Shown here in pieces: positions 8,097 through 36,293 of a stretch of DNA of 64,000 nucleotides (position 1 is its first letter; the number at the start of each line of letters is the position of its first letter). The position numbers and the translations under genes were made by a program. Below the pieces are notes generated by a model. It was given only the letters and a program-made list of their open reading frames with translations. It was not told the origin of the DNA and made no database searches. Origin of the DNA: a virus (Duplodnaviria; Caudoviricetes); IMG/VR virus record IMGVR_UViG_3300037851_000542, positions 128,001 to 192,000 of that record, one strand, 5' to 3'.

Positions 8097-9239
8097 ATGT
8101 TAAATAAGTTAAATTTATACGGACCCTTAAATCAATTAGGTTATGGGATCTTCACCAGAGGTATCATTAAAGGTTTAGCCGAGAATAATGTATTAAATTT
8201 CTCTGTTTTGCCTATAGGTCAGGTACACATTGAAGACCAAAGGGAAGCTCAACTGTTAAAATCTTTAATAGAAACAATGACTTGGGAAAGAAAAGCCCCC
8301 TCAGTAGCTATTTGGCATGAATTCGATTTAACTAAATTTTCTAGTGATAAACTTATAGCTTATCCAATCTTTGAAACAACTAAATTTAATAAGTCTGCAA
8401 TCTCTCAATTAAGTCAAATGGATGCTGTAATAGTGGCATCTAAGTGGGCTAAATCAGTTGTGACTGATAATATTGGGGATAATGTTCCTGTATTTGTGGT
8501 ACCCGGTGCTTCTGATTTAAATGACGAGAATTTAGAAGAGGACTATAATAAGAATAATATTTTTACATTTATCAACGTTGGAAAGTTTGAAAAAAGAAAA
8601 GCGCACGCTGACTTATTACAAGCGTATAAACAGGCTTTTAGTAATTCTCCTAATGAGACTCGTTTGATTTTGCATTGTTTTAATCCACATATGCAGAATT
8701 ATGATAACAATATAAAGGGACTGTTATCGTCTCTAGGTTACACTGTACACGAAAATAGTACCAATATGGGCGCTATAATTGCGAGCGCAGGTAATGCTCT
8801 GGTATCAATACCTAGGGGGTTTATTCCAAAATCTCAATTAATCAGTCTGTATAAGTACTCACATGTTGGAATTTACCCATCTAGAGGTGAAGGCTGGAAT
8901 TTACCACTAGTAGAATCTATTCAAAGTGGATTACCTTGTATAGCTACAAATTATTCGGCGCATACTGAGTATTTAAATGCAGAGTTTAATTATCCCCAAG
9001 AGCTACTATTAAATAACTTCAAAATGGAAACAGCTTTAGATAATATGTATTTTCACGGAGATCGAGGCTACTGGGCTTCGCCTTCAATAGAGGAGATGGC
9101 TGAAAAAATGCTGTATGCTGAGAAAAACTATGCTAAAATAATGGAAACCTTTGGTAATACCTCTGACCTTATAAAGGCTAAGTTTACTTGGAAAAATTCA
9201 GCTTCCAGCTTATTAGAAGTTCTTGATATCCTCGCTTAG
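8097..9239 (+). CDS. GT-B fold glycosyltransferase, GT4 family
   Basis: FINVGKFEKRK and YPSRGEGWNLPLVESIQSGLPCIATNYSAHTEY (EX7E motif). Confidence 0.92.
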   Translation: MLNKLNLYGPLNQLGYGIFTRGIIKGLAENNVLNFSVLPIGQVHIEDQREAQLLKSLIETMTWERKAPSVAIWHEFDLTKFSSDKLIAYPIFETTKFNKSAISQLSQMDAVIVASKWAKSVVTDNIGDNVPVFVVPGASDLNDENLEEDYNKNNIFTFINVGKFEKRKAHADLLQAYKQAFSNSPNETRLILHCFNPHMQNYDNNIKGLLSSLGYTVHENSTNMGAIIASAGNALVSIPRGFIPKSQLISLYKYSHVGIYPSRGEGWNLPLVESIQSGLPCIATNYSAHTEYLNAEFNYPQELLLNNFKMETALDNMYFHGDRGYWASPSIEEMAEKMLYAEKNYAKIMETFGNTSDLIKAKFTWKNSASSLLEVLDILA

Positions 9240-9254
9240 TACTATTTTTAGTAC

Positions 9255-9734
9255 ATGAGAGTTAACTTATTTAATGCTAATAATCCAAACGGACCTAGGC
9301 TAGCTGTTACTGTAGATATTCTTCATCAGGATGTACAACATACTTCTGATGGAGAATTAATCTACATGATCCAGTTTACACACGGTATTTCTGGTATAGA
9401 CCCTGTTGTTATATTAGATGTTACTGAAAAAAACATACAAAAAGAAATAAAAAAAGGATTAGGTATTATAGCTTCTCAGTTAGACTGGGGGAACCTAATA
9501 CCTGATACTAAAACTCCAGCAATAGATACTATTTATCCTCTGCCTAATAGTTTGGATGTTCCAATTGAATCAAACGTTTCAATAAAATTAATTGATAGAT
9601 TTCCAACCTCCCTTATTGATACAAGTACAATAAAACTAACAGTAAATAATATAGATGTTACAAGTGATCTACAAATTAAAGATTTAGATCAGCTTGTAAC
9701 TATTAACTGGCTGCCAAAAAAGGCTATCGACTAG
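9255..9734 (+). CDS. Putative virion protein with C-terminal Ig-like (Big_5/SbsA-like) domain
   Basis: PAIDTIYPLPNSLDVPIESNVSIKLID...IDTSTIKLTVNNIDVT resembles domains in 24950..26998 and 30380..32752; N-terminus resembles 14579..15493. Confidence 0.6.
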   Translation: MRVNLFNANNPNGPRLAVTVDILHQDVQHTSDGELIYMIQFTHGISGIDPVVILDVTEKNIQKEIKKGLGIIASQLDWGNLIPDTKTPAIDTIYPLPNSLDVPIESNVSIKLIDRFPTSLIDTSTIKLTVNNIDVTSDLQIKDLDQLVTINWLPKKAID

Positions 9735-10549
9735 TACAAGTACTCTATTAAGACAGCTGCAGATCTAGCAATGTCATGATTATTGGTATATTTTAACCTA
9801 ATAACAGATCCAGCAGGAATATGAGAACCCTTTTCTATTTTATAACCTAATGGTACTGGACCTTTACCAATTAATGCATAATGTTCTACTACTTTTTGAA
9901 CTAAAAGTACATAAGTGGTACTTGCCGAAAAATTCTGCGTCAAGTTAATATCTAAAGTAAGTTCATTTTCTGCAGCATTGACACTAAGAATTAAAGGCAG
10001 CAACTCTTTAATATTTGTATCCAGCGCATTAACTAACATAAGAGAAGCGCCTGCATTAACATTTTGTATTACAGTTGGACTTACTTTTATTGTATTACTT
10101 CCAGAAGTGACTGCTTCAGTGAGTACCCCTACAGTAAAGCCTATTGGACCATCTGCATATACATCTGCCCAGGTTTTTTCCCCCACCCAAACTTCTAGTA
10201 CATCAAAGGGGCTAATAACATCCTCGTATAGCACTTGTCCACCCATTAAACTGATAGGTATCTTAACTTGAAAATCTGAATTAAAAACCCCGCTTGGTGT
10301 AACGTCTATGCAATCTATAGTTGTACTTTTAAAATGTCCATTAGTAGGAACCCACTCTTTTACAATCTCTACTTGTGTAATTAAATGATCTAATGTTTCA
10401 ATAATAGACACAGAATCCATATTAATTGGACTTCCGTCTGGAGATATTAAGTCTGATGAGTCCTGAGTATCATCTAACCAAGATGTAAAGACTGTATTTC
10501 CACCTGACTCTGTAATAAACCTATATTTATATAATATTTTTGTTGTCAT
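9731..10549 (-). CDS. Putative virion structural protein
   Basis: Contains a ~70-aa beta module (LTEAVTSGSNTIKV...ELTLDINL) shared with other tail proteins; downstream of fibre genes. Confidence 0.5.
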   Translation of the reverse strand: MTTKILYKYRFITESGGNTVFTSWLDDTQDSSDLISPDGSPINMDSVSIIETLDHLITQVEIVKEWVPTNGHFKSTTIDCIDVTPSGVFNSDFQVKIPISLMGGQVLYEDVISPFDVLEVWVGEKTWADVYADGPIGFTVGVLTEAVTSGSNTIKVSPTVIQNVNAGASLMLVNALDTNIKELLPLILSVNAAENELTLDINLTQNFSASTTYVLLVQKVVEHYALIGKGPVPLGYKIEKGSHIPAGSVIRLKYTNNHDIARSAAVLIEYLY

Positions 10550-10552
10550 AAT

Positions 10553-11329
10553 TTATCCTTTTATATCCAAATTAAAAACTGTTATGTTTGCATTACTGCC
10601 TGAAGTACGCCTCACTTGAAGGTCGAGTAATACACCTGAAGAGGGAAAGTTACCACCGCTAATTGTAAATGGAACTAGCAAATTGGCAGTAGAAGCTCCG
10701 GAAAAAAAGGCTGTGGTTGCCAGTTCTGTATTTGTAGTTAAGTTAAAAAGACGAGCTTGACCTGATGTAGTTATAGAAGCAGTTCTAAAGACACCAGAGA
10801 CAGAAAGAACAGGTCCAAAGGAATTAGTACCCTCAAACGGAAATATTGCAGTTGACGTGTAGGTAGTAGAGTTGTTCGTAACACCCTTAGCAAAATTATA
10901 GGATAATTGCTTAGGTTTCGCCTTAGTATCTACATAACTCTTATTACTAGCGTGCCCACTTAGTGTAGGATTATCATTTAAGGTTAAAAATCCGCTCATC
11001 GCATCACCTGACGTATTTACAAACCTAGATTCAGCAAATCCTGAGTAGGACGTTAATGAGCTGTCAGTGGATAAAGGTACTGTAGTTAATTCACCAGTTT
11101 TGACGGAAACTGTGTCACCTGATGCTGTTAAATAAACAATAGAGTCATCTGGTTGCCTTAAGGGTATGGATCCTAAAGGGTGCCTATTACCGGATACTGT
11201 TTGAAAAGACTCATCGGCTAGTTGCTCAATAGCAGTATGCGTGGGGTTGTTAGTTAAATAGGCATCTAACTCATCTTTTAAAAGATACTTATCAACCTGA
11301 GGTATATAATAAATCCATTTTTTTATCAT
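10553..11329 (-). CDS. Short tail/virion fibre protein (paralog of 11353..12939)
   Basis: Fibre shaft motif VNTSGDAMSGFLTL..NPTLSGHASNKSYVD; N- and C-termini align by eye with the neighbouring gene; 12 SG dipeptides. Confidence 0.7.
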   Translation of the reverse strand: MIKKWIYYIPQVDKYLLKDELDAYLTNNPTHTAIEQLADESFQTVSGNRHPLGSIPLRQPDDSIVYLTASGDTVSVKTGELTTVPLSTDSSLTSYSGFAESRFVNTSGDAMSGFLTLNDNPTLSGHASNKSYVDTKAKPKQLSYNFAKGVTNNSTTYTSTAIFPFEGTNSFGPVLSVSGVFRTASITTSGQARLFNLTTNTELATTAFFSGASTANLLVPFTISGGNFPSSGVLLDLQVRRTSGSNANITVFNLDIKG

Positions 11330-11334
11330 AAATC

Positions 11335-11341
11335 TAGTATA
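11335..11341 (-). promoter_or_regulatory. TATACTA putative late promoter, spaced for a leaderless mRNA
   Basis: TATACT hexamer ends 6 nt before the ATG at 11329. Confidence 0.5.
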
Positions 11342-11352
11342 GTATTTTATGG

Positions 11353-12939
11353 TTAAAAATTAGATCCTAGGATTGATAATCCGTGTATAATCATATTGCC
11401 GTTACCTGAGTTTCTTCTTAACTCCACTCTAAATACTGCCGAACCGCTTGGTAAAGCACTGCCACCGGAAGTACTAAGTGAAAATAATCCAGGAGAAGTT
11501 CCACTAAAAGTTCCGGAAGCTACTGTTGTATTATTACTTAAATTATAAACACGCGCCTGCCCTACAGATCCAGCACTAGCAACACTAAAAACGCCTTCAA
11601 AGAAGTTAACTGGACCCATTCTCAAAGTTCCAGGAAAGGAGATATAGGAAACAGTTTGATACGAGGTACTGTTTATTTGGATTCCTACGTTTCCATTATC
11701 AGCATAGGAGTAAGATAGTACTCTGTAACCGCCTGTAGCTGTTAAACTTAAAACCTGAGAAGGTAAATTTCCAGTATAAGTAGCGAACGTAGTATCACTT
11801 ACTAACCCTGTAGTAGTAATATTAACATTGTTGCCGACACCGCTAGATGACTGCAGTCCAAAGCCTAAATTTATATTACCAACATTATTATGATTTAAAC
11901 TACCACTATTACTTACATCCAAAACTCCACTATTTAAAATATTAACTTGATTTTGAAAATACCCAGAGATAGAAGAGTCTCTTTGATCTACATAAAATTT
12001 ATTAGACGAGTGTCCAGATAACGTTGGGTCAGCGTTTAAAGTTAGGAATCCAGTCATCGAATCGCCAGAGGTATTTACAAACCGCCCTTCAGCAAATCCA
12101 GAGTATGTGGTGACGGAATTTGTAGTGAAAATACTAGCTGTAGTTACCGCATTGCCCGAGATAACGGCAACCTCCGATATATCAATAAATTTTCCTTCTG
12201 CAAATCCTGAATATGCAGTTAGATTAGCAAAAGTAGCCATTCCTGTTACCGATACCTCTAACTCGTTACCAGTACCGGAAGAAGCTAGTAATCCAAAACC
12301 TAAATCAATAGATTGAACTGTGCTTAGTACTAGCGTATTTTGATTTTTTCCAGTAATAGGTATAGAGACTTTAGAATCGACGTACTGTTTTGTTGCAGCG
12401 TGTCCAGATGTAACAGGGTCTGAAAATAAAGTAAGGAAACCGGTCATTAAATCACCGGATCTTAATACTCTATTATTTATATCTAACTGTAAGTTTCCTG
12501 ACGTGGTATTTATTAAACTAGTATTGCTTGCAGTTAATCCTGAAACTGTATTAATATCATAGTGTATTTGACTTAAATCTGCAGATACGGTAGTTAAATA
12601 GTTTTCTATATTTACTATGTCTGCTGCTACACCAGATGTTAAAAAACTGATATCATTGTTTATATCTAGTACTTCATTAAAAAAATAACCAGATACTGCC
12701 ATAATTGCAGCATCAATAGTAGCAAATCCTGACAGAGACGTGCTTGCGCCGCTAAGACTTATAAGAGCATTTATAGAGGTGCCCTCTGCGTTCCCTGCTT
12801 GCTCGTAATAACCGCTGGTAATTAAAACAGGTATTGCAACGTAACTAGGATTGTCCGTAAAGTATTGTAACTCTTCGTCTAATATAAATCTGCGGAGCTG
12901 CGGACTCCACCACTGTTGTAATATATCTACCATTTGCAA
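11353..12939 (-). CDS. Tail/virion fibre protein (true start probably ATG at 12933)
   Basis: Two GD.MTGFLTL..DP..SGH...K.YVD modules, YSGFAEG.F repeats, 24 SG dipeptides; 12939 is TTG, ATG lies 6 nt downstream. Confidence 0.72.
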   Translation of the reverse strand: MQMVDILQQWWSPQLRRFILDEELQYFTDNPSYVAIPVLITSGYYEQAGNAEGTSINALISLSGASTSLSGFATIDAAIMAVSGYFFNEVLDINNDISFLTSGVAADIVNIENYLTTVSADLSQIHYDINTVSGLTASNTSLINTTSGNLQLDINNRVLRSGDLMTGFLTLFSDPVTSGHAATKQYVDSKVSIPITGKNQNTLVLSTVQSIDLGFGLLASSGTGNELEVSVTGMATFANLTAYSGFAEGKFIDISEVAVISGNAVTTASIFTTNSVTTYSGFAEGRFVNTSGDSMTGFLTLNADPTLSGHSSNKFYVDQRDSSISGYFQNQVNILNSGVLDVSNSGSLNHNNVGNINLGFGLQSSSGVGNNVNITTTGLVSDTTFATYTGNLPSQVLSLTATGGYRVLSYSYADNGNVGIQINSTSYQTVSYISFPGTLRMGPVNFFEGVFSVASAGSVGQARVYNLSNNTTVASGTFSGTSPGLFSLSTSGGSALPSGSAVFRVELRRNSGNGNMIIHGLSILGSNF

Positions 12940-12954
12940 AAACTAGCAAAGAAA

Positions 12955-13596
12955 TTATAAACGTTTTAATCTTTCTATTCTTAGGTAACCAGATAACAAA
13001 GTAAATGTTATATTTGCTGAGCTATCGGTTGATAAATCTCTAGATCTTATACCTACAGTTTCGTTTATAGAATTCGTGGAAATAATATAGCAACCTTCAG
13101 AAGTCCCCACTGGGGCGGTTCTAACACTTGTAGCCACTCCTGCTGTTTGTGTCGCCGCAACAAATGTTCCTGAATTTCTATTTAAATCCGTTACTAAGTT
13201 ACGACTTCTGGTTGCGAAAGTGGATCCTGTTATTTCTCCAGTTACTTGCCAATTTATTTTATAAATCCCAATGTTTACAAGTGTAACATTATTTGAGTCT
13301 ACTGTAAAGCCCGATCCATTGCTTAATACAGACCCTGTATTTAAATTTAAAAGATTGTTGGTTGTAATTAAATCTGTACCGGCAGTAAACTCAACCTGTA
13401 CTAAATTAGGAGTATTAATTGTAATAGCCATATCCTCTACAGCAGAGAATACATCAGTCCCAGAAACACCAATATTTGTAAAGTCAGATCCCGAAGTTGT
13501 TATAGGTACTAAACTTGCATCTAAAGCAGTCTCGTTAAAGTTACTAGAAGAGACCCTAGGTACTAGTAATGTTCCATTTGAAAATGTTATAGGCAT
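12955..13596 (-). CDS. Virion fibre/spike protein with C1q/BclA-C-like C-terminal domain
   Basis: N-terminus MPITFSNGTLLVPRVSSSNF matches 34830..36293 (MPITLADGSLRIDRVASGNF); C-terminal TLVNIGIYKINWQV pattern typical of TNF/C1q jelly rolls. Confidence 0.5.
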   Translation of the reverse strand: MPITFSNGTLLVPRVSSSNFNETALDASLVPITTSGSDFTNIGVSGTDVFSAVEDMAITINTPNLVQVEFTAGTDLITTNNLLNLNTGSVLSNGSGFTVDSNNVTLVNIGIYKINWQVTGEITGSTFATRSRNLVTDLNRNSGTFVAATQTAGVATSVRTAPVGTSEGCYIISTNSINETVGIRSRDLSTDSSANITFTLLSGYLRIERLKRL

Positions 13597-14148: not shown

Positions 14149-14154
14149 TACATT

Positions 14155-14578: not shown

Positions 14579-15493
14579 ATGGCAATTAATGAAACCACAC
14601 AGGACGCTATTAATAATCCTGGAAATACAAAAACCGTAACACTAGATTTAACTAAGCAAGTTTATGCTGACAGTGAAGGTGATGAACAGTATGCTTTAAC
14701 TCTATCTACTACGGCTACTAGTAAAATAACTGCTGGTAGTATTGCTAATACCTACATAAGAGATGTAAAAGTAGGCTACTCTAAGAGTAGAAAAATAGCC
14801 GGACCTTTTAATATAGATGGTACCAAAAACCAACTTAGAGTTAGTATAGACGGATCTACCTCTAGAACGATTACATTAACCTCTGGTACAGGACTCACAC
14901 CTAATGACATAGTGAATGACCTTCAGGCACAGATATCTTCACTAGCAGGGACTGGTGGACTGGAAGAGGGTAACTTAGGGTTTCTTAATGCTGATGTAGA
15001 GTTTGTTGAAGGTAGATTTAGGATTCTCTCAGGCTCTGTTTCAGATACTTTTACTGGCATAGCTAAGTCAAGCGTTTCAGTTTTATCAGGAGTAGCTAAC
15101 GACGCTACAAGTTATTTAGGGTTTAATATCCCCATTCAAAGTGAGGATTTGGCTTCAAAGTCTTCTGCGGAAACTATAGTAGTTTCCGGCTTTACTGCTA
15201 GCGGTACTACCTTGGCGCTAGAAAGTGTTATTGGATGTAATAGTGGAGAAGCTTTTACAATAACAGACGGAGTATCCAGAGAGTATTTTATTGCTACTGC
15301 TGTCACTAGTGGAAACTCTACTTTAACGGTGGCTTCTGGTACAATTAATAACAACTATGCAATTAATTCTGTTGTTCAAAAGATATTTGAAAGAGACCCA
15401 GATTCCTCAGTACCTAACCCTCTAACTACAGTAGATGAGATTATGAGGTTTAGCTTAAAGAATGTGGTTAACCAAATAGATTATACCACTTAA
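14579..15493 (+). CDS. Putative virion protein (multi-module, SG-rich)
   Basis: LRVSIDGSTSRTITLTSG...RFRILSG domain shared with 23050..24585; second beta module shared with tail proteins; 8 SG. Confidence 0.6.
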   Translation: MAINETTQDAINNPGNTKTVTLDLTKQVYADSEGDEQYALTLSTTATSKITAGSIANTYIRDVKVGYSKSRKIAGPFNIDGTKNQLRVSIDGSTSRTITLTSGTGLTPNDIVNDLQAQISSLAGTGGLEEGNLGFLNADVEFVEGRFRILSGSVSDTFTGIAKSSVSVLSGVANDATSYLGFNIPIQSEDLASKSSAETIVVSGFTASGTTLALESVIGCNSGEAFTITDGVSREYFIATAVTSGNSTLTVASGTINNNYAINSVVQKIFERDPDSSVPNPLTTVDEIMRFSLKNVVNQIDYTT

Positions 15494-27000: not shown

Positions 27001-29280
27001 CTAGTTAGATATTGTACCACGAATGGTAACATTACCAGGTGTAGTACCTACTGAGTAAGTAGTTTGAGATATACCACTAGTGTTTGTATTTGAATTAGCA
27101 GGGTTTATAACTCCATCCCCAAGAGTTATGTCATAGTTAACTGTTATAGCGTTAAGAGGATCCCCCCAAGCACTTATAACTTCAGTTACGACAGTAGAGG
27201 TTTCGGATGTACCTGCTCTAAGGCTAGTATCTAGTAAATTTAATCCTGCAAAAGCTGGTACAGTTTTATCTATACTGTAACTACCTATTCTAAAATTATT
27301 ACCAGATTGGGAAGCTATATATAAAGTGTTATGATCATTGCCGTGCAGGTAAAAAGAACACTTTTCTCCTTTTTCACTCAAGATTACTGATTTGCTATTC
27401 CAAGAAGGAACATCAAGAAAAAGTTGCCTAGTAGATATTGAAGGACTTGATCCTGTTATGGTTAGTGTACCTACTTGAATTTCATTTATGATATCCGAGT
27501 AATCTAAAAACTGTAAGAATCCTCCAAATGTTCTATTAAAACATAAGTCTTGAATAGATCCCGTAAAGAGTCCAGATGATGGATAAATATTTGCATAAGG
27601 GGCAGTATATGTACCTGAAGAAGGAAAAGCATTACCACTTATTGGTATTTTATAAATATCACTATGTATTTTTATATAAGCATTAAATGATTCATCTACT
27701 GCTAAATTAGAGTTTTTACCTACAAGTGTTAGTGCAGAATCTACTATAAAAACTCCTGTATCAGTATACACATCAGACGTAACTTTATATCCTAGATTGT
27801 TTATAATTGTACTTGTGTTTCTAGCTTTAAAATCTATTTCATTAATTTTTATACCTGAAAATCCTATTGCCGGAACATCAGTAGAGAAAGCAATATCTAA
27901 AGCTCCTGTTTGCTGAACTTGTAAACTAAAGTTAGAAAAATATACTGGAGTTGGAAAGAAAGTTCCACTAGGATTGGCTATGTAATAAACATCAGGGTGT
28001 AAGGTAAAATACTTAGATCCGCTTGTTACTGCGTCTGCAAAGTTATATTCAATATTAAAACCACTACTGCCGCTTACTGTTAAATGCGTACCACTAGTAG
28101 TTGTAATCTCTAAATTGCCTTGTCCAGATGTTACTGGTGTAGTTTGATAATAAACTTGAAAATTTAATGGTACTCCTGATCCTGCCGCCGAAAAAAATCT
28201 AGGCTCACTTATATATGTAAATAAGTCATCTACATTGTAGGGTCTTCTAATACCACTAGGACTTAATACTAATCCTGTATTAGTTTTTGAATAGTTTGTA
28301 GAACCTTCATTATGGTATAATATTAGACTTTCTACATAATTTGTATTATCTATGCCTGATATTGTAATATCGATCCAGCCTGTACTAGTTACATCTTTAT
28401 AAAGATTGCTTATAGGTGCTCCTACTCCACTAACTGTATTATGCAAACTAGTAAATCTTAAATCAAAATTATTAAAATAACCAATTCCACCGCCACTTAC
28501 AATAGGACGAGAATTATTAAAATATCCCCCTGAAACTGCCATAGACACTAAATAAGTACCGCTTGTGTTAGTAACAACACCTTCTCTATAAGTTAACGAA
28601 TTGTTTATTGAAGGTTCAGTGCTCCTCTCAGACAAGAAGAGTCCATAGATAGAACTACTAGGAGTAGGAATAGCGCTATAATCTATTGAAGCGGAGCGAT
28701 CATACGTAGAGGGGACTGCTCCGGAAGTTCTAATAATTGCTAGATCCAAACCGTTAGCTGCTGAAACACCGGGAACAGTTTGCGTATTAAAAAAGGTAGG
28801 CGCTCCACTAAAATTAATCCTGCCAAGACTGCTATCAAGGTTGAATACTCCAAATCCTAAAAAAGCAGAATTATTTTGATAAATGCCCCATATAGATTTA
28901 AAACTGTTAAAACCTGATGTAACAAGTGGTTGATTAAAGTCTGGTAAATAAGTACTATTAAATCTTAAATCTTTAATAAAATCATCGTAATAACTACCGT
29001 CTCTGTAAAAGATATCAGTGTCGCTGAAAGTACTAACAAAACTTGCTGAATATAACTTATTGTTCAACTTATCATAAGCTATATCAAACAAGTAAGGTTC
29101 AGATTTAATATAACTTGCTGCGGATAAACCGTTTGTTTGAAAATAGAATAAATTACCGCTAAGTGCTATTAAATTAGCACCTGTGTGTATTACTTTTTTA
29201 GCATTAGTTAATTTGAGATAATTACTATCACCACTAATAGTTGTATCTATAGGTAAAATATCCCCTGGAAGTAATACCAT
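27001..29280 (-). CDS. Putative receptor-binding/tail protein with C-terminal invasin/intimin-type Ig (Big_1-like) domain
   Basis: C-terminal DTSLRAGTSETSTV...WGDPL...NTNTSGISQTTYSVG; paralog of 29280..30380 with a large central insertion; 24 SG. Confidence 0.6.
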   Translation of the reverse strand: MVLLPGDILPIDTTISGDSNYLKLTNAKKVIHTGANLIALSGNLFYFQTNGLSAASYIKSEPYLFDIAYDKLNNKLYSASFVSTFSDTDIFYRDGSYYDDFIKDLRFNSTYLPDFNQPLVTSGFNSFKSIWGIYQNNSAFLGFGVFNLDSSLGRINFSGAPTFFNTQTVPGVSAANGLDLAIIRTSGAVPSTYDRSASIDYSAIPTPSSSIYGLFLSERSTEPSINNSLTYREGVVTNTSGTYLVSMAVSGGYFNNSRPIVSGGGIGYFNNFDLRFTSLHNTVSGVGAPISNLYKDVTSTGWIDITISGIDNTNYVESLILYHNEGSTNYSKTNTGLVLSPSGIRRPYNVDDLFTYISEPRFFSAAGSGVPLNFQVYYQTTPVTSGQGNLEITTTSGTHLTVSGSSGFNIEYNFADAVTSGSKYFTLHPDVYYIANPSGTFFPTPVYFSNFSLQVQQTGALDIAFSTDVPAIGFSGIKINEIDFKARNTSTIINNLGYKVTSDVYTDTGVFIVDSALTLVGKNSNLAVDESFNAYIKIHSDIYKIPISGNAFPSSGTYTAPYANIYPSSGLFTGSIQDLCFNRTFGGFLQFLDYSDIINEIQVGTLTITGSSPSISTRQLFLDVPSWNSKSVILSEKGEKCSFYLHGNDHNTLYIASQSGNNFRIGSYSIDKTVPAFAGLNLLDTSLRAGTSETSTVVTEVISAWGDPLNAITVNYDITLGDGVINPANSNTNTSGISQTTYSVGTTPGNVTIRGTISN

Positions 29281-30380
29281 TAATCAGATACCTCTATTTG
29301 AATTTGCACAGGACCTGCGACAGTACCTGCAGTGTATAAAGATGTTGCTATTCCACTTATATTAGTATTAACGACTAGTGGGTTTAGTACACCATCTCCT
29401 TGTGTTATTAGGAAATTTACTTGTTTATTATTTAAAGGTTCTCCCCATACATTTATGGCACTAGCGTATACATTGGAAGATGCTCCTGTTCCTGCTCTGA
29501 GACTTACATCCTCTAAATTGACGGCGGCAAAACCGGTAGATAACGAATCAACGTTATAACTGGACAGCACTGATCTATTTATTCCGGTATCTGTAGTTAC
29601 GAGATATAATGTATTATGGTCAAGCTCGTTATAAAAAAAGGATGAGTCGGAAGTACCGCTCATTGAGGACCGGTTAGATGTTGAAGCAGGTGCTAAAAAC
29701 AATTGCCTGTCTTTGTAGGTAGGCGAGTTTCCAGAAGTTACTGCCCAGGTCTCCAGTATAACTTCATCTACCGAAGGTTTATATTCAAAAAGCCCTATAA
29801 AGTGTGAATCTTTTCTACTATAAATTAAAGAACCTGCTGACTGATTAATGCCACTAGTTAGTAGGTTTATGTTTAAATCTGACTCAGTATACCCAGATAC
29901 GGACGGAAAAAGAGATCCGGAGGCTGGCAGGTCGTAGATCCCTTGATCTACACGCAGGTATACCTTGGCATAATCTGTTACTACTAGTTCCACTCTAGGT
30001 AGTATACTAGAAAAGTTAGAAGTTAAACCAGATATTACATTTAAATAGTTAAGTACATTGGTTACTACTACTCCTGCTGCAGTTACTTGTTCTACTATTA
30101 CTCCAATAATATTAGAACCACTTGTAGCCGCCCGTGCGGTGTAATACTTATTGTTATTAAAAGCCACGTCAAAAATATAATCATTAGCTGCTATATAGGC
30201 AGCTGTTTGTACACCATTTGTCTGGTAATAATAAAAACTAGGATTTAAGCTAGAAGATAGATCAGCTACAAGATAGTTACTGCCGTCGTGCAGAACTCTC
30301 TTTGCAGTAGTAGGTTTTAAATCTCCGGATGGAAAAGTTACCCCAGTACTTAATGGAATTACGTCGCCTTGAATTAACAT
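29280..30380 (-). CDS. Putative tail protein, beta-rich N-terminus plus Big_1-like domain
   Basis: N- and C-termini align by eye with 27001..29280. Confidence 0.6.
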   Translation of the reverse strand: MLIQGDVIPLSTGVTFPSGDLKPTTAKRVLHDGSNYLVADLSSSLNPSFYYYQTNGVQTAAYIAANDYIFDVAFNNNKYYTARAATSGSNIIGVIVEQVTAAGVVVTNVLNYLNVISGLTSNFSSILPRVELVVTDYAKVYLRVDQGIYDLPASGSLFPSVSGYTESDLNINLLTSGINQSAGSLIYSRKDSHFIGLFEYKPSVDEVILETWAVTSGNSPTYKDRQLFLAPASTSNRSSMSGTSDSSFFYNELDHNTLYLVTTDTGINRSVLSSYNVDSLSTGFAAVNLEDVSLRAGTGASSNVYASAINVWGEPLNNKQVNFLITQGDGVLNPLVVNTNISGIATSLYTAGTVAGPVQIQIEVSD

Positions 30381-32752: not shown

Positions 32753-32756
32753 GAGT

Positions 32757-34043
32757 CTAGGCTCCCTTAGTCTGAGCAGTAATAGTTACTAAAGCTGCTG
32801 TATCTCCGGAAGTGTATAAGGTAGTAGTTACTCCACTGACTGTATTGCTAGTAGTAGGGCTTACAAACCCTGGAGTAGGTCCTGCTGTATGATCGTCAGA
32901 AAACTGTACAGAGACAGTACCAACCGGCTGGTCAAACTGATCTCTTACAGTAGCTGTAATTGTAGAGGTAGACACAGCATCTGCACTAATTATAGCTGGG
33001 TCCGCAGTTAGAGAAATGCTTTGAGGTATTCTAGTCAGGGTACTTAATTGATAATTATATTGGGTTCCCCAGTCTTCTGTTGCAATAGTACCATTAGTAT
33101 TAAATGTAGCTTTCTGTTGTAGTCTAAACAGTGTATTATTTTGACTAGTTATTTCGTATACTGGTATTGTAGTGGTATTAACTTCTTGATTGTTTTGGGC
33201 GGCACTTTTAACATTATTTAAAAAATTAGAGTTTGTATCCTTGGTCTCTAAAAATAGTAAATTGGTTTCAACCATATAAACTAGATAATCTCTATTATCT
33301 TGTGGATCTTTTAAGTAATGAGCTGCTGTAGAAGATTTAAATTGTGTTCCTATGTCTCTTTGAACAACAGTTGGTAAGCTATCGTGAATATTAAAACTCA
33401 ATAATGCTCCATTGCCTCCGCTAGCAAAACTCTCATTCTGTCTATATTTATTAAATATCCAAATACGTTTAGACCAACAAAGATTGTCAGTTATATTATA
33501 AGTATATTGAAGGTTTGATGTTAAATTTACCTGGTTTCCAGGTCCTGTACTAGCTACTATAACTTGTTCAGTTCTTCCCTCAAATCCAGCAAAGGTAGAA
33601 GGTCCTAGAAATAATCTATTACCAGCCTCTATCCTATCAAAAGAGGATCCTGATACTAGGATATTATTATTTCCAGATGAAGCTACAGTTTGCAAGTCTG
33701 CGTGAAAATGTTCTACTGAAAAAGTACTTGTATCAAAAATAAAATTAGACAATCCACTGGACAATGTATAAGTTCTATCCAGTTGCAGTATAAAATCATC
33801 TATACCCCACCTTTTGATTAGTATAGACCCTGTATTAGTATTCTCTAAAGTCCAAAACCACCTTCCATCGTGCTCTAGGGCAGCTACTGAGTACTGTGTT
33901 GTAGAATCAAGTGCATAAGAGTATGCATTAGAACCGTCATCAGTCTTTTTATATAATACGTCTGCATTATCTGGAATATGATAAAAATAACCATCGACTC
34001 TGGTTACATTGGGTTTAGTTAGTCTTAGATTCTCTTTTGCCAT
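32757..34043 (-). CDS. Putative tail protein: propeller-like region plus Big_1-like domain
   Basis: ALEHDGRWFWTL; SLTADPAIISADAVSTSTITATVRDQFDQPV (classic Big_1 pattern). Confidence 0.65.
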   Translation of the reverse strand: MAKENLRLTKPNVTRVDGYFYHIPDNADVLYKKTDDGSNAYSYALDSTTQYSVAALEHDGRWFWTLENTNTGSILIKRWGIDDFILQLDRTYTLSSGLSNFIFDTSTFSVEHFHADLQTVASSGNNNILVSGSSFDRIEAGNRLFLGPSTFAGFEGRTEQVIVASTGPGNQVNLTSNLQYTYNITDNLCWSKRIWIFNKYRQNESFASGGNGALLSFNIHDSLPTVVQRDIGTQFKSSTAAHYLKDPQDNRDYLVYMVETNLLFLETKDTNSNFLNNVKSAAQNNQEVNTTTIPVYEITSQNNTLFRLQQKATFNTNGTIATEDWGTQYNYQLSTLTRIPQSISLTADPAIISADAVSTSTITATVRDQFDQPVGTVSVQFSDDHTAGPTPGFVSPTTSNTVSGVTTTLYTSGDTAALVTITAQTKGA

Positions 34044-34048
34044 GTAAA

Positions 34049-34708
34049 TTACTCAGTATATAAAGGCGTATATGGTATACTTACACTGGCATTTCCCCTT
34101 TGCCCTAATTGAAAGAATACTGCATTTCCAATACTAGTTACTTCTCCGTTTACTGACTCGTCTGCATTACCTATACCTGGAAATCCGGCATTTACTTGGA
34201 TATTTAAACCGTCTACTGCAGTTAGATTGTCAAATGTGACTCCTGTTATATTAGGCGATACGGCTTGTCCTGTGCTAACCCCTCTGAGCATTATAGGGGG
34301 ATTAAAGGACGCTGGCTGTCCTTGTACCTCTAAAATTGGTTTACTAACTAGTGTCCAACTTTGGGTTCCAAAACCATCAACTTCTTTGCTATAACTGTAG
34401 GACGTAACAAAAAAAGATCCTGCTATATTTCCTGGGTTGGAGCCTATACAGTTTCCTGGTGTGACGCTAAAATTAACAGTACTTGCATCTACACAAGATG
34501 TGCTTACCGGCAATGCTAAAGAATAACCCCTGCCCGATCCAGCATAATTAGTGACATTTATTTGCGTTTGAGTAGTTATTATTTTAAAGTACGGGTTAGG
34601 GCTACCTAGTACATAGTTAGATTGAATACTAGGTTGTTGTGATACAGAAACTGATAGTACTCCCTGAAGAGGGGAAACAAGTGTTGCAGTTCCGATTATA
34701 AATGCCAT
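34049..34708 (-). CDS. Tail-tube-fold baseplate/distal tail protein
   Basis: LQGVLSVSVSQQPSIQSNYVLGSPNP resembles the RVQ...ELG...P tube motif of 50456..52759. Confidence 0.4.
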   Translation of the reverse strand: MAFIIGTATLVSPLQGVLSVSVSQQPSIQSNYVLGSPNPYFKIITTQTQINVTNYAGSGRGYSLALPVSTSCVDASTVNFSVTPGNCIGSNPGNIAGSFFVTSYSYSKEVDGFGTQSWTLVSKPILEVQGQPASFNPPIMLRGVSTGQAVSPNITGVTFDNLTAVDGLNIQVNAGFPGIGNADESVNGEVTSIGNAVFFQLGQRGNASVSIPYTPLYTE

Positions 34709-34754
34709 ACCTTTAATTACCCTTCCATATAATCTTTTTAATTATATAGTACAT

Positions 34755-34790
34755 AAGCATACGGGAAAGCCTAAGCCTTCCCGTATGCTT
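34755..34790 (-). terminator. Hairpin, likely terminator downstream of 34830..36293
   Basis: AAGCATACGGGAA(G)GC-TTAG-GC(T)TTCCCGTATGCTT on the minus strand, 16-bp stem with one G-U pair; weak U-tract. Confidence 0.7.
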
Positions 34791-34829
34791 TGATTACCAC
34801 TATTTATAAAATAGTGGTAATTTACTTAA

Positions 34830-36293
34830 TTATGACCAGATTGAAAGAGGGGTTCTCTTCCAGCTATCTGTGCCAACTGCGATATATAGATAATCGTCTG
34901 ACCATCTAAGTTCTCCTTCTACACCAGAAGCAGATATTGAAGCAGGTTCTGCTCCAGAAGCTGTAGCTAGTCCGTTAGAGGCAGTAGTGAATCCAGTAAA
35001 TGTCTTATCTCCTGCTACACTTTGGTTTGTAGTAGTTTTAACAATACCACTTAGGGCTATTGTAACTTCGTTAGCACCTGCGCCTGAAGTAACTACAAAT
35101 AAGTCAGCATCAAAGTCAAATGTTTGAACCGCACCATTAACTGTTACGTTACCTTCTTGTACAATAACTGTAGCTGCAGATACTTGAGAATCTACATACT
35201 GCTTAGTTACTGCGTGTCCGGAAGCCGTAGGATCTGCGTGTAGAGTTAGGAATCCAGTCATTGTATCGCCAGAAACATTTACGAACTGTCCTTCAGCGAA
35301 ACCTGAGTAAGTTGCAATAGAGCTGGTTGTGAACGAGTTTGCTGTAGCAACTGCGTCTCCAGAAATAGTTACAATCTCAGTAGTGTCGATAAAGTGACCT
35401 TCAGCGAAACCTGAGTAAGTTGCAATAGAGCTGGTTGTGAACGAGTTTGCTGTAGCAACTGCGTCTCCAGAAATAGTTACAATCTCAGTAGTGTCGATAA
35501 AGTGACCTTCAGCGTATCCAGAGTAAGCTAGTAGATCAGCGCTGCTTGCTACACCTGTTAGGGTTATAACGGCTTCGCCTACACCAGAAGTTACGTTAAA
35601 GAATACTGCTCCAAAATCTAGTGAAGTTACAGAAGAGTTAACGCTTACGTTATCTTGTTGTACACCTAGAGTCAAGGAAGAAGCTAGATAACTAGAAGCT
35701 GCTAAAAGTTCAGAAGCATAAACAATATTATCAATAGCGTTGATAGTAGAACCGCTATCAGCTGTGAATCCAGTAGCCCAATGATCAGTGCTTTCATTCC
35801 AAAATAAAATAGAACCAGAAGAGGTTCCTCTTTCTACATAGAACCCTGCGTTAAGAGTAGGAGTTCCACTTGCATTTGTGTTTAGTCCAATAATGTTATC
35901 TTCAACCAATAGTGTTTCAGAAACAAGCAGACTTACGCCGCTTACTAGTGTAACGCTACCGTTAAATACGGTCTCCCCTTGGAAAGTTTTATTTCCAAAA
36001 ATCTCTTGGTTGGTGTTAGTGGTTACTAGTCCGGACACACCAACATTAGCTTCGCCTGTTGGAGATTCAGATACAGTTAAGTATTCACCAAAATCAATTG
36101 TACCAACGTTGAAAGTACCAGCGTCGTCTTTTTTAACAGAGAGTGGAGTAGAAGATCCACTGATTGTAAAAGCAGCGTTAGTTTTACTAACACTAATCCC
36201 ACCTGTTCCTGTAATTGTCAAATTGTCTTCTGTAAAGTTACCAGAAGCTACTCTATCTATACGTAGAGATCCGTCTGCTAATGTAATTGGCAT
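34830..36293 (-). CDS. Tail/virion fibre protein
   Basis: GD.MTGFLTL.ADPTASGHAVTKQYVD, Q.I.GNKTF modules, C-terminal GELRWSDDYLYIAVGTDSWKR..L cap; 19 SG. Confidence 0.75.
   Translation of the reverse strand: MPITLADGSLRIDRVASGNFTEDNLTITGTGGISVSKTNAAFTISGSSTPLSVKKDDAGTFNVGTIDFGEYLTVSESPTGEANVGVSGLVTTNTNQEIFGNKTFQGETVFNGSVTLVSGVSLLVSETLLVEDNIIGLNTNASGTPTLNAGFYVERGTSSGSILFWNESTDHWATGFTADSGSTINAIDNIVYASELLAASSYLASSLTLGVQQDNVSVNSSVTSLDFGAVFFNVTSGVGEAVITLTGVASSADLLAYSGYAEGHFIDTTEIVTISGDAVATANSFTTSSIATYSGFAEGHFIDTTEIVTISGDAVATANSFTTSSIATYSGFAEGQFVNVSGDTMTGFLTLHADPTASGHAVTKQYVDSQVSAATVIVQEGNVTVNGAVQTFDFDADLFVVTSGAGANEVTIALSGIVKTTTNQSVAGDKTFTGFTTASNGLATASGAEPASISASGVEGELRWSDDYLYIAVGTDSWKRTPLSIWS
35290..35514. 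repeat. Perfect in-frame 108-bp tandem duplication (36 aa unit)
   Basis: CCTTCAGCG starts at 35290, 35398 and 35506; the two full units are identical at DNA level. Confidence 0.97.

What the first reader, a model, noticed from the sequence alone, without database searches (positions are those of the whole stretch)
8097..36293. Candidate phage virion O-glycosylation system: Ser-Gly-saturated surface proteins plus a phage GT4
Seen (hand counts): SG vs GS is 24 vs 5 in 11353..12939 (528 aa), 12 vs 2 in 10553..11329, 19 vs 5 in 34830..36293, 24 vs 8 in 27001..29280, and 7 vs 1 in 58653..59219. SG is mostly in [T/V/I/A/L]-S-G context. The major capsid protein has 0 SG, the lumenal tape measure about 15 in 2542 aa, and PhoH 3. 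NG and DG, the usual beta-turn dipeptides, are rare in the two fibres checked (11353, 34830), so turn preference alone does not explain it. SG also appears inside otherwise common fibre motifs (VNTSGD.MTG, DPT.SGHA..K.YVD). A GT4 gene sits in the structural region, 15 nt upstream of an Ig-domain virion-type gene. Known: mycobacteriophages glycosylate virion proteins with their own glycosyltransferases, and Ser-Gly is the eukaryotic xylosylation acceptor. Inference: SG is a selected sequon for dense glycan decoration of fibres and the tail tip, acting as a shield or adhesion layer.
Basis: partly seen in the sequence, partly recalled or inferred. Interest (0 to 1): 0.85.

Follow-up and report, generated by a model that had tools for sequence, protein, structure and literature searches.

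The report
Ser-Gly excess on phage tail proteins
About ten tail-fibre and baseplate-edge proteins of an uncultured 260-kb phage carry three to five times more Ser-Gly pairs than expected, the phage also encodes many sugar-transfer enzymes, and a link between the two is plausible but unproven.

Summary
In this 259,994-bp jumbo phage, 11 proteins carry 149 SG against 46 expected (GS 48). The other 363 ORFs sit at expectation (365 vs 337).

- **Not an artefact.** SG is the only dipeptide enriched in several proteins. All Ser and Gly codons are used, so it is not a DNA motif. 141 of 149 sites have unique flanks, so it is not repeat-driven.
- **Ser-specific.** TG, AG, NG and DG are not enriched.
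- **Distinct context.** Sites follow uncharged residues rich in Thr/Val/Ile or Pro.
- **Not general to fibres.** T4 virion proteins and a homologous Bacillus-phage fibre lack it.
- **Kept by turnover.** The same orthologous groups are enriched in five related metagenomic phages, yet only 29% of sites are positionally conserved.
- **Derived.** In a widespread fibre module this clade replaced the family consensus x-Leu with Ser-Gly.
- **Glycosylation capacity.** The GT4 is genuine (GT-B fold, invariant EX7E) and a core gene of the clade. A glycan-synthesis island lies outside the window.

Nothing links the enzymes to SG serines. GT4-fibre adjacency is not conserved, and the capsid protein has no SG.

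My odds are 0.35 for an O-glycosylation acceptor motif, 0.35 for a structural habit and the rest for other causes. Other first-reader notes saw the same bias in overlapping windows of this genome, not on other DNA.

The parts
8097..9239 (+). GT4-family (GT-B fold) glycosyltransferase, a core gene of this jumbo-phage clade
   Evidence: Pfam Glycos_transf_1 1.9e-12 and phrog_2170 1e-31. About 50 orthologues at 46-66% identity on contigs up to 254 kb. E265 and E273 (EX7E) and K163/K168 are invariant in 47 sequences. AF2 pLDDT 94.6. Best Foldseek match is a chlorovirus NY2A glycosyltransferase (3oy2, E 7e-15); SdgB is in the top five.
8064..8070 (+). TACTAT[AT] promoter-like element 33 nt upstream of the GT4 start, a type shared with many structural genes
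   Evidence: The motif is 2.5-fold enriched in intergenic DNA. It lies 8-100 nt upstream of the GT4, the fibre operon, ORFs 14579, 34049, 50456, 58653 and others. That it acts as a promoter is inferred.
9255..9734 (+). 159-aa protein 15 nt downstream of the GT4, always paired with it; the C-terminal half is Ig-like (Big_5-type), a lead only
   Evidence: The pair is conserved in G006, L039, L046 and L047. Atlas feature score 0.81 and TM at most 0.53 to Ig-like clusters. Alignment A3.
9731..13596 (-). Four-gene fibre cassette (272, 258, 528 and 213 aa), convergent with the GT4 pair and inserted into the otherwise conserved GT4 operon
   Evidence: In L046 and L047 the 159-aa homologue is followed directly by the homologues of 13702, 14155 and 14579. 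In G006 and L039 other fibre genes occupy this place.
10553..11329 (-). 258-aa fibre protein, SG 12 vs 2.4 expected (GS 2)
   Evidence: In the AF2 model the C-terminal beta-sandwich (residues 140-258) has pLDDT 70-87. SG sits at strand boundaries (189, 210, 224, 231, 243) and once mid-strand (178). These SG are not conserved in out-group homologues (alignment A1).
11353..12939 (-). 528-aa tail fibre, SG 24 vs 7.7 expected (GS 5)
   Evidence: PHROG tail-fibre hits. 1,289 homologues in the representative library. 21 of 24 SG flanks are non-redundant.
14579..15493 (+). 304-aa protein of the conserved GT4 operon, SG 8 vs 3.1 expected (GS 3)
   Evidence: Orthologues in G006 (7 vs 3.3), L046 (6 vs 3.1) and L047 (5 vs 3.8) show a weak excess.
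24950..26998 (-). 682-aa baseplate-region protein, SG 12 vs 4.2 expected
   Evidence: Orthologues in G001 (13 vs 5.5) and L046 (13 vs 3.1).
27001..29280 (-). 759-aa baseplate-region protein with a C-terminal Ig-like end, SG 24 vs 8.6 expected (GS 8), no internal repeats
   Evidence: L046 orthologue 20 vs 7.9.
29280..30380 (-). 366-aa paralogue of 27001-29280 at its N- and C-termini (Big_1-like C-terminus), SG 9 vs 3.4 expected
   Evidence: L038 counterpart 9 vs 2.3.
32757..34043 (-). 428-aa protein with an Invasin_D3/Big_1 domain, weak SG excess (6 vs 2.4)
   Evidence: L038 orthologue 9 vs 3.2.
34830..36293 (-). 487-aa fibre with a foldon-like C-terminus, SG 19 vs 6.4 expected (GS 5)
   Evidence: Orthologues in G001 (26 vs 6.7) and L038 (33 vs 6.0, GS 1).
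58653..59219 (-). 188-aa protein next to the capsid gene, with the same foldon-like C-terminus, SG 7 vs 1.8 expected (GS 1)
59495..60565 (-). Major capsid protein, internal contrast: 0 SG (1.7 expected)
   Evidence: phrog_2522 major head protein at 2.5e-10.
40730..48358 (-). Tape measure protein, internal contrast: SG 22 vs 22.2 expected
   Evidence: PHROG tape-measure hits down to 6e-53.

Best explanation
**Shown.** In this jumbo-phage lineage, Ser-Gly preceded by two or three uncharged, mostly Thr/Val/Ile/Pro residues has been selected at protein level. It is kept at about one site per 20-35 residues on a fixed set of distal-tail proteins: fibres, Ig-domain-bearing baseplate-edge proteins and a foldon-tailed protein beside the capsid gene. 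Individual sites come and go while the density stays.

**Inferred.** The SG serines are most likely acceptor sites for cytoplasmic O-glycosylation of these proteins before or during assembly. The candidate enzymes are the phage's soluble GT-B transferases: the clade-core GT4 at 8097-9239, perhaps with the transferases of the glycan island at genome 225869-236283. That island could supply an unusual nucleotide sugar through its KdsC-like phosphatase, nucleotidyltransferase-isomerase fusion and C-methyltransferase. The result would be a glycan coat confined to the host-contacting end of the tail.

Enzyme-substrate pairing, sugar identity and the existence of any modification are all untested.
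For: **Strength and specificity.** In the 11 most enriched proteins SG is 155 vs 48.9 expected (z = 15). GS, TG, AG, NG and DG are not enriched there. SG is the only dipeptide enriched in several proteins.

**Protein level and independent sites.**

**A context unique to SG.** At positions -3 to -1, charged residues are 0.14-0.36x, Thr/Val/Ile 1.5-2.1x and Pro 1.8-2.3x. No Pro occurs at +1. Other x-Gly and other Ser-x sites show no bias. This is how a recognition motif behaves.

**Fold-independent but protein-specific.**
- The enriched proteins include fibre shafts, a beta-sandwich head domain, non-repetitive beta-rich proteins and Ig-bearing proteins.
- The capsid protein, tape measure, the 630-, 790-, 278- and 219-aa baseplate neighbours and non-structural proteins are at or below expectation.
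- The same split recurs in relatives G001, G006, L038, L039 and L046 at 30-47% identity.

**Density kept by turnover.**
- 34 of 118 aligned SG are conserved.
- Ser in SG is conserved at 39% against 32% for other Ser, and Gly at 61% against 59%.
- Counts stay level: 19/26, 12/13, 8/7, 7/6.

**Derived state.**
- In the module before [H/Q]-A-x-x-K-x-Y the family has AL/PL/NL (364 cases) and SG in 28.
- 27 of those 28 are in representatives that are SG-rich overall.
- This clade has SG in 8 of 9 modules.

**Controls.** T4 gp5-12, Wac, gp18, gp20, gp23, gp24, Hoc and gp34-37 are not enriched. Nor is the homologous AgentSmith fibre (12 vs 9.7). Neither genome has a Glycos_transf_1 gene.

**Enzymes.**
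- The GT4 looks catalytically intact and is conserved across the clade.
- Its nearest solved structure is a chlorovirus GT, and the Ser-Asp-repeat O-GlcNAc transferase SdgB is in the top five.
- A second GT4, a divergent GT-B, two WavE-like proteins and sugar-activation genes are present.
- The GT4 shares a TACTAT[AT] upstream element with structural genes.

**DNA acceptor less likely.** ThyA keeps the dUMP-type Asn in its PFNIASY motif at 355 bits, and there is no C5 methyltransferase.

**Precedent.** Mycobacteriophages glycosylate capsid and tail-tube proteins with their own transferases (PMC12363180, citing Freeman et al. 2023). Glycoproteins were detected in jumbo phage XacN1 (PMC5852040).
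Against: - No data show any modification, and the link between enzymes and SG is circumstantial.
- It rests on essentially one phylogenetic event, because every relative that keeps this region has the GT4.
- GT4-fibre adjacency is not conserved.
- GT4 enzymes mostly act on lipids, polysaccharides or small molecules. The SdgB/SdgA NCBIfam scores are 24 and 21 bits against a cut-off of 800.
- The broad fibre family shows a milder [S/T]-G preference: SG 1.7-2.1x and TG about 1.4x.
- In the one usable model, SG lies at strand boundaries, as a structural turn motif would.
- Where Gly is kept and Ser lost, Ala is the commonest replacement (10), ahead of Thr (7).
- The largest exposed surface carries none: the capsid protein has 0 SG and the 767-aa tail protein is not enriched.
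- Phage glycan clusters with HAD phosphatases, nucleotidyltransferases and GT-B enzymes are known to modify DNA (bioRxiv 10.1101/2023.12.21.572611).
- More distant relatives G004 and G005 show SG-rich large proteins with no Glycos_transf_1 hit in the 43-47 kb available. They are fragments, so this is weak.
Confidence: 0.35

Rival explanations
1. Structural or physicochemical habit without modification. Ser-Gly after an uncharged beta-branched strand is a favoured strand-end, beta-bulge or turn solution for the beta-rich trimeric and Ig-like proteins of this lineage. It would be inherited and spread by ordinary evolution of fast-changing receptor-binding proteins. The glycosyltransferases would then serve something else.
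For: - There is a family-wide [S/T]-G preference in 150 diverse fibre homologues: pooled SG 2129 vs 1141 expected, GS 1195, TG about 1.4x.
- SG is part of conserved fibre motifs such as SGDxMTG.
- In the AF2 model, 5 of 6 SG in the confident domain lie at strand boundaries.
- The flanking context looks like a beta-strand.
- Ser to Ala is the commonest replacement.
- More distant relatives G004, G005 and G007 show a weaker version of the trait.
Against: - In this clade only Ser is favoured. TG is 43 vs 39 and AG 20 vs 23, and NG and DG are below expectation.
- T4 fibres, fibritin, Hoc and baseplate proteins, and the homologous AgentSmith fibre, show nothing.
- A conserved module Leu was replaced by Gly only in this clade.
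- SG in the head domain aligns with K-F, K-A and S-Q in out-group homologues, one of them mid-strand.
- Gly and Ser in SG are no better conserved than other Gly and Ser.
- The excess spans unrelated sequence families but skips neighbouring beta-rich, Ser- and Gly-rich baseplate proteins, for example 38831-40723 with 2 vs 5.9.
Confidence: 0.35
2. SG is selected for another reason tied to the exposed tail end. Candidates are a different modification of Ser (for example phospho- or acyl-type), recognition by a phage assembly factor or protease, or chemical durability by replacing deamidation-prone Asn-Gly and isomerisation-prone Asp-Gly in long-lived virions.
For: - The Ser-specific, clade-specific, density-conserved pattern calls for some lineage-specific selective agent but does not name it.
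- NG (16 vs 31) and DG (10 vs 22) are low in the enriched set.
- The phage encodes a trypsin-like protease and ClpP close by.
Against: - The NG/DG deficit is largely forced by SG taking 39% of all Gly.
- T4 tolerates many NG and DG in its fibres.
- No Ser kinase or acyltransferase was found in the part annotated.
- Dense protease sites in fibres would be harmful.
- The genome's most conspicuous modification machinery is for glycans.
Confidence: 0.15
3. The glycosyltransferases and sugar-activation genes modify phage DNA or the host envelope, and have nothing to do with the SG proteins.
For: - Phage clusters with a HAD phosphatase, a nucleotidyltransferase and GT-B enzymes install heptose or Kdo on DNA bases (bioRxiv 10.1101/2023.12.21.572611). 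Arabinosylation clusters have a similar make-up (PMC13326640).
- The GT4 has a marginal Pfam GT4-conflict hit (26.9 bits, cut-off 26).
- A ThyA homologue lies 12 kb from the island.
Against: - ThyA scores 355 bits and keeps the Asn of true thymidylate synthases, not the Asp of dCMP hydroxymethylases.
- There is no C5-cytosine methyltransferase, and the control genomes did respond to that search.
- No Tet/JBP hit was found, but that search's control was silent, so it is uninformative.
- This rival explains the enzymes but leaves the SG pattern unexplained.
Confidence: 0.25

Closest known systems
Mycobacteriophage virion glycosylation (Che8, Corndog, Myrna; Freeman et al. 2023, as summarised in PMC12363180)
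   Same: Phage-encoded glycosyltransferases, with accessory sugar-modifying genes, would glycosylate the phage's own virion proteins in the cytoplasm.
   Different: There the targets are capsid and tail-tube subunits and modification is shown by experiment. Here the capsid protein has no SG, the candidates are fibres and baseplate-edge proteins, a dipeptide motif is proposed, and nothing is shown experimentally.
Staphylococcal SdgA/SdgB and streptococcal GtfA/GtfB (GT4 enzymes that O-GlcNAcylate serines of repetitive adhesins)
   Same: They have the GT4/GT-B fold, act in the cytoplasm on Ser within a short recurring dipeptide context (Ser-Asp for SdgB), and modify densely. SdgB is among the five best structural matches.
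   Different: Sequence similarity is generic: 24 bits against an NCBIfam cut-off of 800. The acceptors there are disordered low-complexity repeats, whereas here the sites are scattered in folded beta-rich proteins. The partner residue is Gly, not Asp.
Autotransporter heptosyltransferases (AAH/TibC acting on AIDA-I/TibA); from my own knowledge, not checked here
   Same: Ser in short loops between beta-strands of a beta-rich surface protein is modified many times per molecule. Recognition is of a structural motif rather than a strict sequon.
   Different: It is a different enzyme family, its substrates are repetitive beta-helices, and it is bacterial rather than phage-encoded.
Chlorovirus capsid glycosylation by virus-encoded transferases (PBCV-1; cited in PMC5852040)
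   Same: The virus carries its own transferases and sugar-nucleotide genes. The nearest solved structure to the GT4 is a chlorovirus NY2A glycosyltransferase (3oy2).
   Different: The host is eukaryotic, the linkage is N-type to the capsid protein, and the function of the 3oy2 protein itself is unknown.
Eukaryotic proteoglycan xylosylation at Ser-Gly
   Same: The same dipeptide, with a Ser-only acceptor.
   Different: That sequon needs nearby acidic residues and a GT14 enzyme. Here charged residues are 3- to 7-fold depleted upstream and the enzymes are GT4/GT-B. The resemblance is only in the two letters.
Phage DNA glycan-hypermodification clusters (bioRxiv 10.1101/2023.12.21.572611; PMC13326640)
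   Same: The gene content is similar: HAD phosphatase, nucleotidyltransferase, sugar isomerase and GT-B transferases.
   Different: Those clusters sit with a dCMP-hydroxymethylase-type ThyA homologue or with a C5-methyltransferase plus a TET-type dioxygenase. Here ThyA is canonical and no C5-methyltransferase is found.

Membership tests
GT4 / Pfam Glycos_transf_1 retaining GT-B glycosyltransferases | Sequence match above the curated cut-off | tested here: met
   PF00534 at 47.5 bits against a cut-off of 26.4; phrog_2170 at 1e-31.
GT4 / Pfam Glycos_transf_1 retaining GT-B glycosyltransferases | Two-Rossmann-domain GT-B fold | tested here: met
   AF2 pLDDT 94.6 and pTM 0.92. At least 500 PDB GT-B matches, the best at E 7e-15.
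GT4 / Pfam Glycos_transf_1 retaining GT-B glycosyltransferases | EX7E motif and phosphate-binding Lys/Arg | tested here: met
   E265 and E273 are invariant, and K163/K168 invariant, in 47 aligned sequences.
GT4 / Pfam Glycos_transf_1 retaining GT-B glycosyltransferases | Sugar transfer from a nucleotide sugar | not testable with these tools
   Needs an enzyme assay.
Protein Ser-O-glycosyltransferases of the SdgA/SdgB type | Membership by sequence model | tested here: not met
   NF047881 at 24.4 bits and NF047880 at 21.2 bits, against cut-offs of 800.
Protein Ser-O-glycosyltransferases of the SdgA/SdgB type | A protein serine as acceptor | not testable with these tools
   There is only structural likeness of the general GT4 kind.
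Phage virion glycosylation systems (mycobacteriophage type) | Phage-encoded transferases plus sugar-modifying genes | tested here: met
   Two GT4s, one divergent GT-B, two WavE-like proteins, a C-methyltransferase, a nucleotidyltransferase and a KdsC-like phosphatase.
Phage virion glycosylation systems (mycobacteriophage type) | Virion proteins shown to carry glycans | not testable with these tools
   The phage is known only from metagenomes, and no proteomic data are available here.
Phage virion glycosylation systems (mycobacteriophage type) | Capsid and tail-tube subunits as targets | tested here: not met
   If SG marks the targets, the capsid protein (0 SG) and the 767-aa and 345-aa tail proteins (7 vs 6.5 and 0 vs 1.9) are not among them.
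Eukaryotic Ser-Gly xylosylation sequon | Acidic residues flanking Ser-Gly | tested here: not met
   Charged residues are 0.14-0.36x at positions -3 to -1 and 0.68-0.77x at the first two positions after Gly.
DNA-hypermodifying glycosyltransferase clusters | Partner enzyme that makes a hydroxylated pyrimidine: a dCMP-hydroxymethylase-type ThyA homologue, or a C5-methyltransferase plus TET | tested here: inconclusive
   ThyA has the canonical Asn and 355 bits. No PF00145 hit, with a responsive control. The Tet_JBP search was negative but its control was silent. A dUMP hydroxymethylase cannot be excluded from sequence alone.
Phage tail-fibre module family (GDxMTG ... DP ... HAxxKxYVD) | Presence of the module | tested here: met
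   ORFs 10553, 11353 and 34830 carry it. There are 1,289 homologues at E of 1e-3 or better. PHROG tail-fibre hit phrog_16641 at 1.5e-7.

The most novel reading that the evidence does not exclude
A whole clade of uncultured jumbo phages uses [uncharged/beta-branched]-Ser-Gly as the acceptor motif of a phage-encoded O-glycosylation system. The system coats only the host-contacting tail proteins, not the head, with a glycan built from a phage-made unusual sugar (ulosonic-acid-like and/or C-methylated). Evolution keeps the density of sites while moving them, as with glycan shields of animal viruses.
Probability: 0.3. Interest if true: 0.85.

Novelty: new variant of a known kind. Interest (0 to 1): 0.6.

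Why it matters
Virion glycosylation by phage enzymes is so far documented mainly for mycobacteriophages, without a simple sequence rule. If Ser-Gly is an acceptor motif, glycosylated phage proteins could be predicted from sequence. A coat confined to fibres would bear on host recognition, resistance to proteases and antibodies, and phage engineering. If it is not, the pattern is still a strong, lineage-specific and so far unexplained rule of protein composition. The clade even overwrote a conserved hydrophobic residue of a widespread fibre module, which is worth explaining in structural terms.

Tried and rejected
**Rejected as explanations**
- DNA-level motif: all Ser and Gly codons are used in normal proportions.
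- Internal repeats in the window's proteins: rejected. Repeats do explain high SG in out-of-clade homologues P0008 and P0085 and in Streptomyces phage Rooney gp30.
- General property of fibres or Ig-like virion proteins: T4 shows nothing.
- NG/DG avoidance as an independent signal: mostly forced by the SG excess.
- Sigma-28-like promoters (TAAA-N16-CCGATA) as a link between the GT4 and structural genes: they precede only small, presumably early genes.
- A 'pseudo-GT4' in the window, a lead from another note: 18420-19445 has no similarity to the transferases and looks like a TIM-barrel glycoside hydrolase. No second GT was found inside the window.

**Searches that gave nothing useful**
- Close phages in INPHARED by DNA or by capsid protein: none.
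- Homologues of 27001-29280 by the word-based protein search and in IMG/VR: only itself.
- Pfam and PHROGs on most structural ORFs: no hits.
- Whole-record GT search in metagenome contigs L039 and L046-L048: not possible, because those records are not held.
- The Freeman et al. 2023 paper is not held.

**Complex prediction**
- GT4 with the 159-aa partner: no verdict (score 0.00). It counts neither for nor against binding.

**Structure limits**
- The AF2 model of the 258-aa fibre is poor for residues 42-136, so only the C-terminal domain was used.

Full report
**Setting.** The window is bases 128,001-192,000 of a single 259,994-bp viral contig with 33% G+C, rated 95% complete by CheckV. It holds a head-tail-baseplate module on the minus strand.
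- Identified genes are the capsid protein (phrog_2522), a 2,542-aa tape measure, ClpP, PIN-PhoH, a trypsin-like protease and an FAD oxidoreductase.
- Most structural ORFs have no Pfam or PHROG match.
- No close phage exists in INPHARED.
- Relatives exist only as metagenomic contigs. G001 (102 kb) and G002 (51 kb) have capsid proteins 68% identical. G006 (153 kb), L038, L039 (254,845-bp contig), L046 (243 kb) and L047 (221 kb) were found through the fibre or the GT4.

**The observation.** That equals its expectation of 22.2.
- Over 374 called ORFs, SG is 514 against 383 expected from each protein's own composition, while GS is 385 against 383.
- The surplus sits in 11 proteins, with 149 SG against 45.9 expected and GS 48. 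The other 363 ORFs hold 365 against 337.
- In a scan of all 400 dipeptides over the 161 proteins of at least 150 aa, SG reaches p<1e-3 in six proteins and no other dipeptide in more than two.
- In the enriched set SG is 155 against 48.9 (z = 15), and 39% of all Gly follows Ser.

**Trivial causes excluded.**
- Codon choice at SG mirrors codon choice elsewhere, so there is no underlying DNA word.
- Flanking 12-residue windows are non-redundant for 141 of 149 sites, so cryptic repeats do not explain it.

**What kind of site it is.** SG has a context that other Gly and other Ser lack.
- At -3 to -1, charged residues are 0.14-0.36 of expectation.
- At the same positions Thr/Val/Ile are 1.5-2.1x and Pro 1.8-2.3x. 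Pro is absent at +1.
- Thr-Gly (43 vs 39) and Ala-Gly (20 vs 23) are not enriched in these proteins.
- In the only confidently modelled domain (residues 140-258 of ORF 10553-11329, pLDDT 70-87), five SG lie at strand boundaries and one mid-strand.
- In alignment A1 those positions hold K-F, K-A, S-Q or gaps in out-group homologues.

**Which proteins.**
- Enriched: three fibre-type proteins (10553, 11353, 34830), four baseplate-region proteins (24950, 27001, 29280 and weakly 32757, the latter three with Big_1/invasin-type Ig ends), a 188-aa protein beside the capsid gene that shares a foldon-like C-terminus with the 34830 fibre, a 304-aa protein of the GT4 operon, and two proteins just upstream of the window.
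- Not enriched: capsid (0 SG), tape measure, the 767- and 345-aa tail proteins, and the Ser- and Gly-rich baseplate neighbours 38831 (2 vs 5.9), 37286, 34049, 30380 and 23050, along with non-structural proteins.

**Comparison with relatives.**
- The same orthologous groups are enriched, and the same neighbours are not, in G001, G006, L038, L039 and L046. Examples are fibres at 26 vs 6.7, 33 vs 6.0 and 80 vs 19.3, and the 27001 and 24950 orthologues of L046 at 20 vs 7.9 and 13 vs 3.1.
- Only 34 of 118 aligned SG are SG in the orthologue.
- Ser and Gly within SG are conserved no better than other Ser and Gly (39 vs 32% and 61 vs 59%), yet totals stay level. Density, not position, is maintained.
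- More distant relatives G004, G005 and G007 show a weaker form.

**Comparison with unrelated phages.**
- T4 gp5-12, Wac, gp18, gp20, gp23, gp24 and Hoc total SG 48, GS 47 and 40.6 expected. Of gp34-38 none is significant: gp34 is 12 vs 7.1 (p 0.057) and gp37 is 9 vs 12.2.
- The 150 best representatives of the fibre-module family (1,289 hits) show a moderate family-wide preference: pooled SG 2129 against 1141, GS 1195, TG about 1.4x, independent of composition tercile and of rank.
- The extreme representatives I traced were either members of this clade (P0053, P0002) or owed their count to tandem module copies (P0008, P0085; also Rooney gp30).
- The homologous fibre of Bacillus phage AgentSmith is at expectation (12 vs 9.7). 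Neither AgentSmith nor T4 has a Glycos_transf_1 gene.
- In the conserved module, the two residues before [H/Q]-A-x-x-K-x-Y are AL, PL or NL in the family (364 cases) and SG in 28. Of those 28, 27 are in representatives that are SG-rich overall. This clade has SG in 8 of 9 modules. SG here is therefore a derived replacement that removed a conserved Leu.

**The enzymes.**
- ORF 8097-9239 is a GT4. It matches Pfam above cut-off and has an invariant EX7E motif. The GT-B model has pLDDT 94.6. Its nearest solved structure is a chlorovirus NY2A transferase of unknown role, followed by SenB and SdgB.
- It has about 50 orthologues at 46-66% identity on large contigs.
- It always sits as ClpP <- | -> GT4 - 159-aa protein.
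- In L046 and L047 the operon continues directly into the homologues of 13702, 14155 and 14579. The window's four fibre genes (9731-13596, opposite strand) are therefore an insertion, and GT4-fibre adjacency is not a conserved trait.
- A TACTAT[AT] element, 2.5-fold enriched between genes, precedes the GT4 and many structural genes. The sigma-28-like promoters precede only small genes.
- Outside the window, genome 225869-236283 holds:
  - a KdsC-like HAD phosphatase (TIGR01670, 1e-24);
  - a nucleotidyltransferase-RpiB fusion;
  - two WavE-like proteins;
  - a sugar C-methyltransferase (Methyltransf_13/14);
  - a second GT4;
  - a 349-aa divergent viral GT-B (atlas 0.99, TM 0.88).
- Parts of this island recur in G001, G002 and G006.

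**Alternative acceptors.** Phage clusters of similar make-up glycosylate DNA (bioRxiv 10.1101/2023.12.21.572611; PMC13326640).
- Here the ThyA homologue scores 355 bits and keeps the Asn of true thymidylate synthases.
- No C5-methyltransferase is found, with a responsive control.
- The Tet/JBP search was uninformative.
- DNA modification is therefore less likely but not excluded. A host-envelope or small-molecule acceptor cannot be addressed.

**Reading.**
- That Ser-Gly in a defined uncharged context is selected, derived, Ser-specific, fold-independent, protein-specific and maintained by turnover in this clade is well supported. I put this at about 0.85.
- Why it is selected is open.
- A recognition motif for a lineage-specific agent fits these properties better than a plain turn preference. 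Phage-encoded O-glycosylation is the most concrete candidate, given six or more transferase-like genes and known precedents (PMC12363180; PMC5852040).
- The link is nevertheless circumstantial and rests on one lineage.
- The one model places SG where a structural motif would be, a weaker [S/T]-G habit runs through the family, and the capsid is not marked.
- My odds are 0.35 for glycosylation, 0.35 for a structural habit without modification and 0.15 for another selective cause. The remainder is unknown.
- Separately, I put 0.25 on the enzymes serving DNA or the host envelope. That question overlaps the structural and 'other cause' readings and is not part of the same sum.

**Novelty.** Virion glycosylation by phage enzymes is known. 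A dipeptide acceptor rule, restriction to distal tail proteins and conservation of density across a jumbo-phage clade would be a new variant. I found no paper describing an SG bias in phage fibres. Other first-reader notes saw the same bias in overlapping windows of this same genome, not on other DNA.

Noticed in passing
outside the window: genome 225869-236283 (locus L036): A glycan-synthesis island: a KdsC-like HAD phosphatase with a 160-aa N-terminal extension, a nucleotidyltransferase-RpiB fusion, two WavE-like proteins, an NDP-sugar C-methyltransferase, a second GT4, a divergent viral GT-B (349 aa, with paralogues in relatives) and several unknown proteins. It is partly conserved in G001, G002 and G006.
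   Followed up: partly
window 9731-13596 compared with L046:11120-12072 and L047:11028-11938: The four-gene fibre cassette on the minus strand is an insertion into an otherwise conserved plus-strand operon (GT4, 159 aa, 148 aa, 116 aa, 304 aa). Relatives carry different fibre genes, or none, at this spot, which suggests a swap site for host-range genes.
   Followed up: partly
fibre module in window ORFs 10553-11329, 11353-12939 and 34830-36293: In the widespread module ending H/Q-A-x-x-K-x-Y-V-D, the family consensus A/P/N-Leu is replaced by Ser-Gly in this clade (8 of 9 modules).
   Followed up: yes
window 8064, 13655, 14514, 19486, 34751, 52832, 59282 and others: TACTAT[AT] (often ATACTAT) is enriched in intergenic DNA (63 of 301 copies lie in 8.4% of the genome). 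It sits 8-100 nt upstream of the GT4 and of many structural genes, so it is a candidate phage promoter class.
   Followed up: partly
whole genome; one copy in the window near 21067 (-): Forty-five copies of TAAA-N16-N[CT]CGATA, almost all intergenic and 9-80 nt upstream of small ORFs in the left arm. None precedes the structural genes or the GT4.
   Followed up: partly
window 34830-36293 and 58653-59219, C-termini: Both end in a similar short beta-hairpin 'foldon-like' trimerisation segment. The same segment is found in cyanophage structural proteins (55 Synechococcus-phage records).
   Followed up: partly
Streptomyces phage Rooney MZ648033.1, genes 30-33 (loci L041, L042): A 1,397-aa protein with many copies of the same fibre module (SG 22 vs 8.9, mostly inside module copies) is followed directly by annotated glycosyltransferase, nucleotidyltransferase and methyltransferase genes.
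   Followed up: partly
window 18420-19445 (-): A 341-aa protein without Pfam hits. The protein-language-model search points to GH5/apiosidase-like TIM-barrel glycoside hydrolases (score 0.93; a lead only).
   Followed up: partly
window 16420-17211 (-) and 17287-18423 (+): A full-length trypsin-family serine protease (Pfam 5.7e-42) and a DAO-family FAD oxidoreductase (7.7e-41) sit between the structural blocks.
   Followed up: no
outside the window: genome 112321-114717 (locus L037): A 798-aa protein with 30 Asp-Leu against 5.3 expected, owing to a short D-L-x-A-x-I-type repeat. This is the only dipeptide signal in the genome stronger than SG.
   Followed up: no
outside the window: genome 213430-214203 (locus L044): A canonical thymidylate synthase (355 bits, PFNIASY motif with Asn).
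   Followed up: yes
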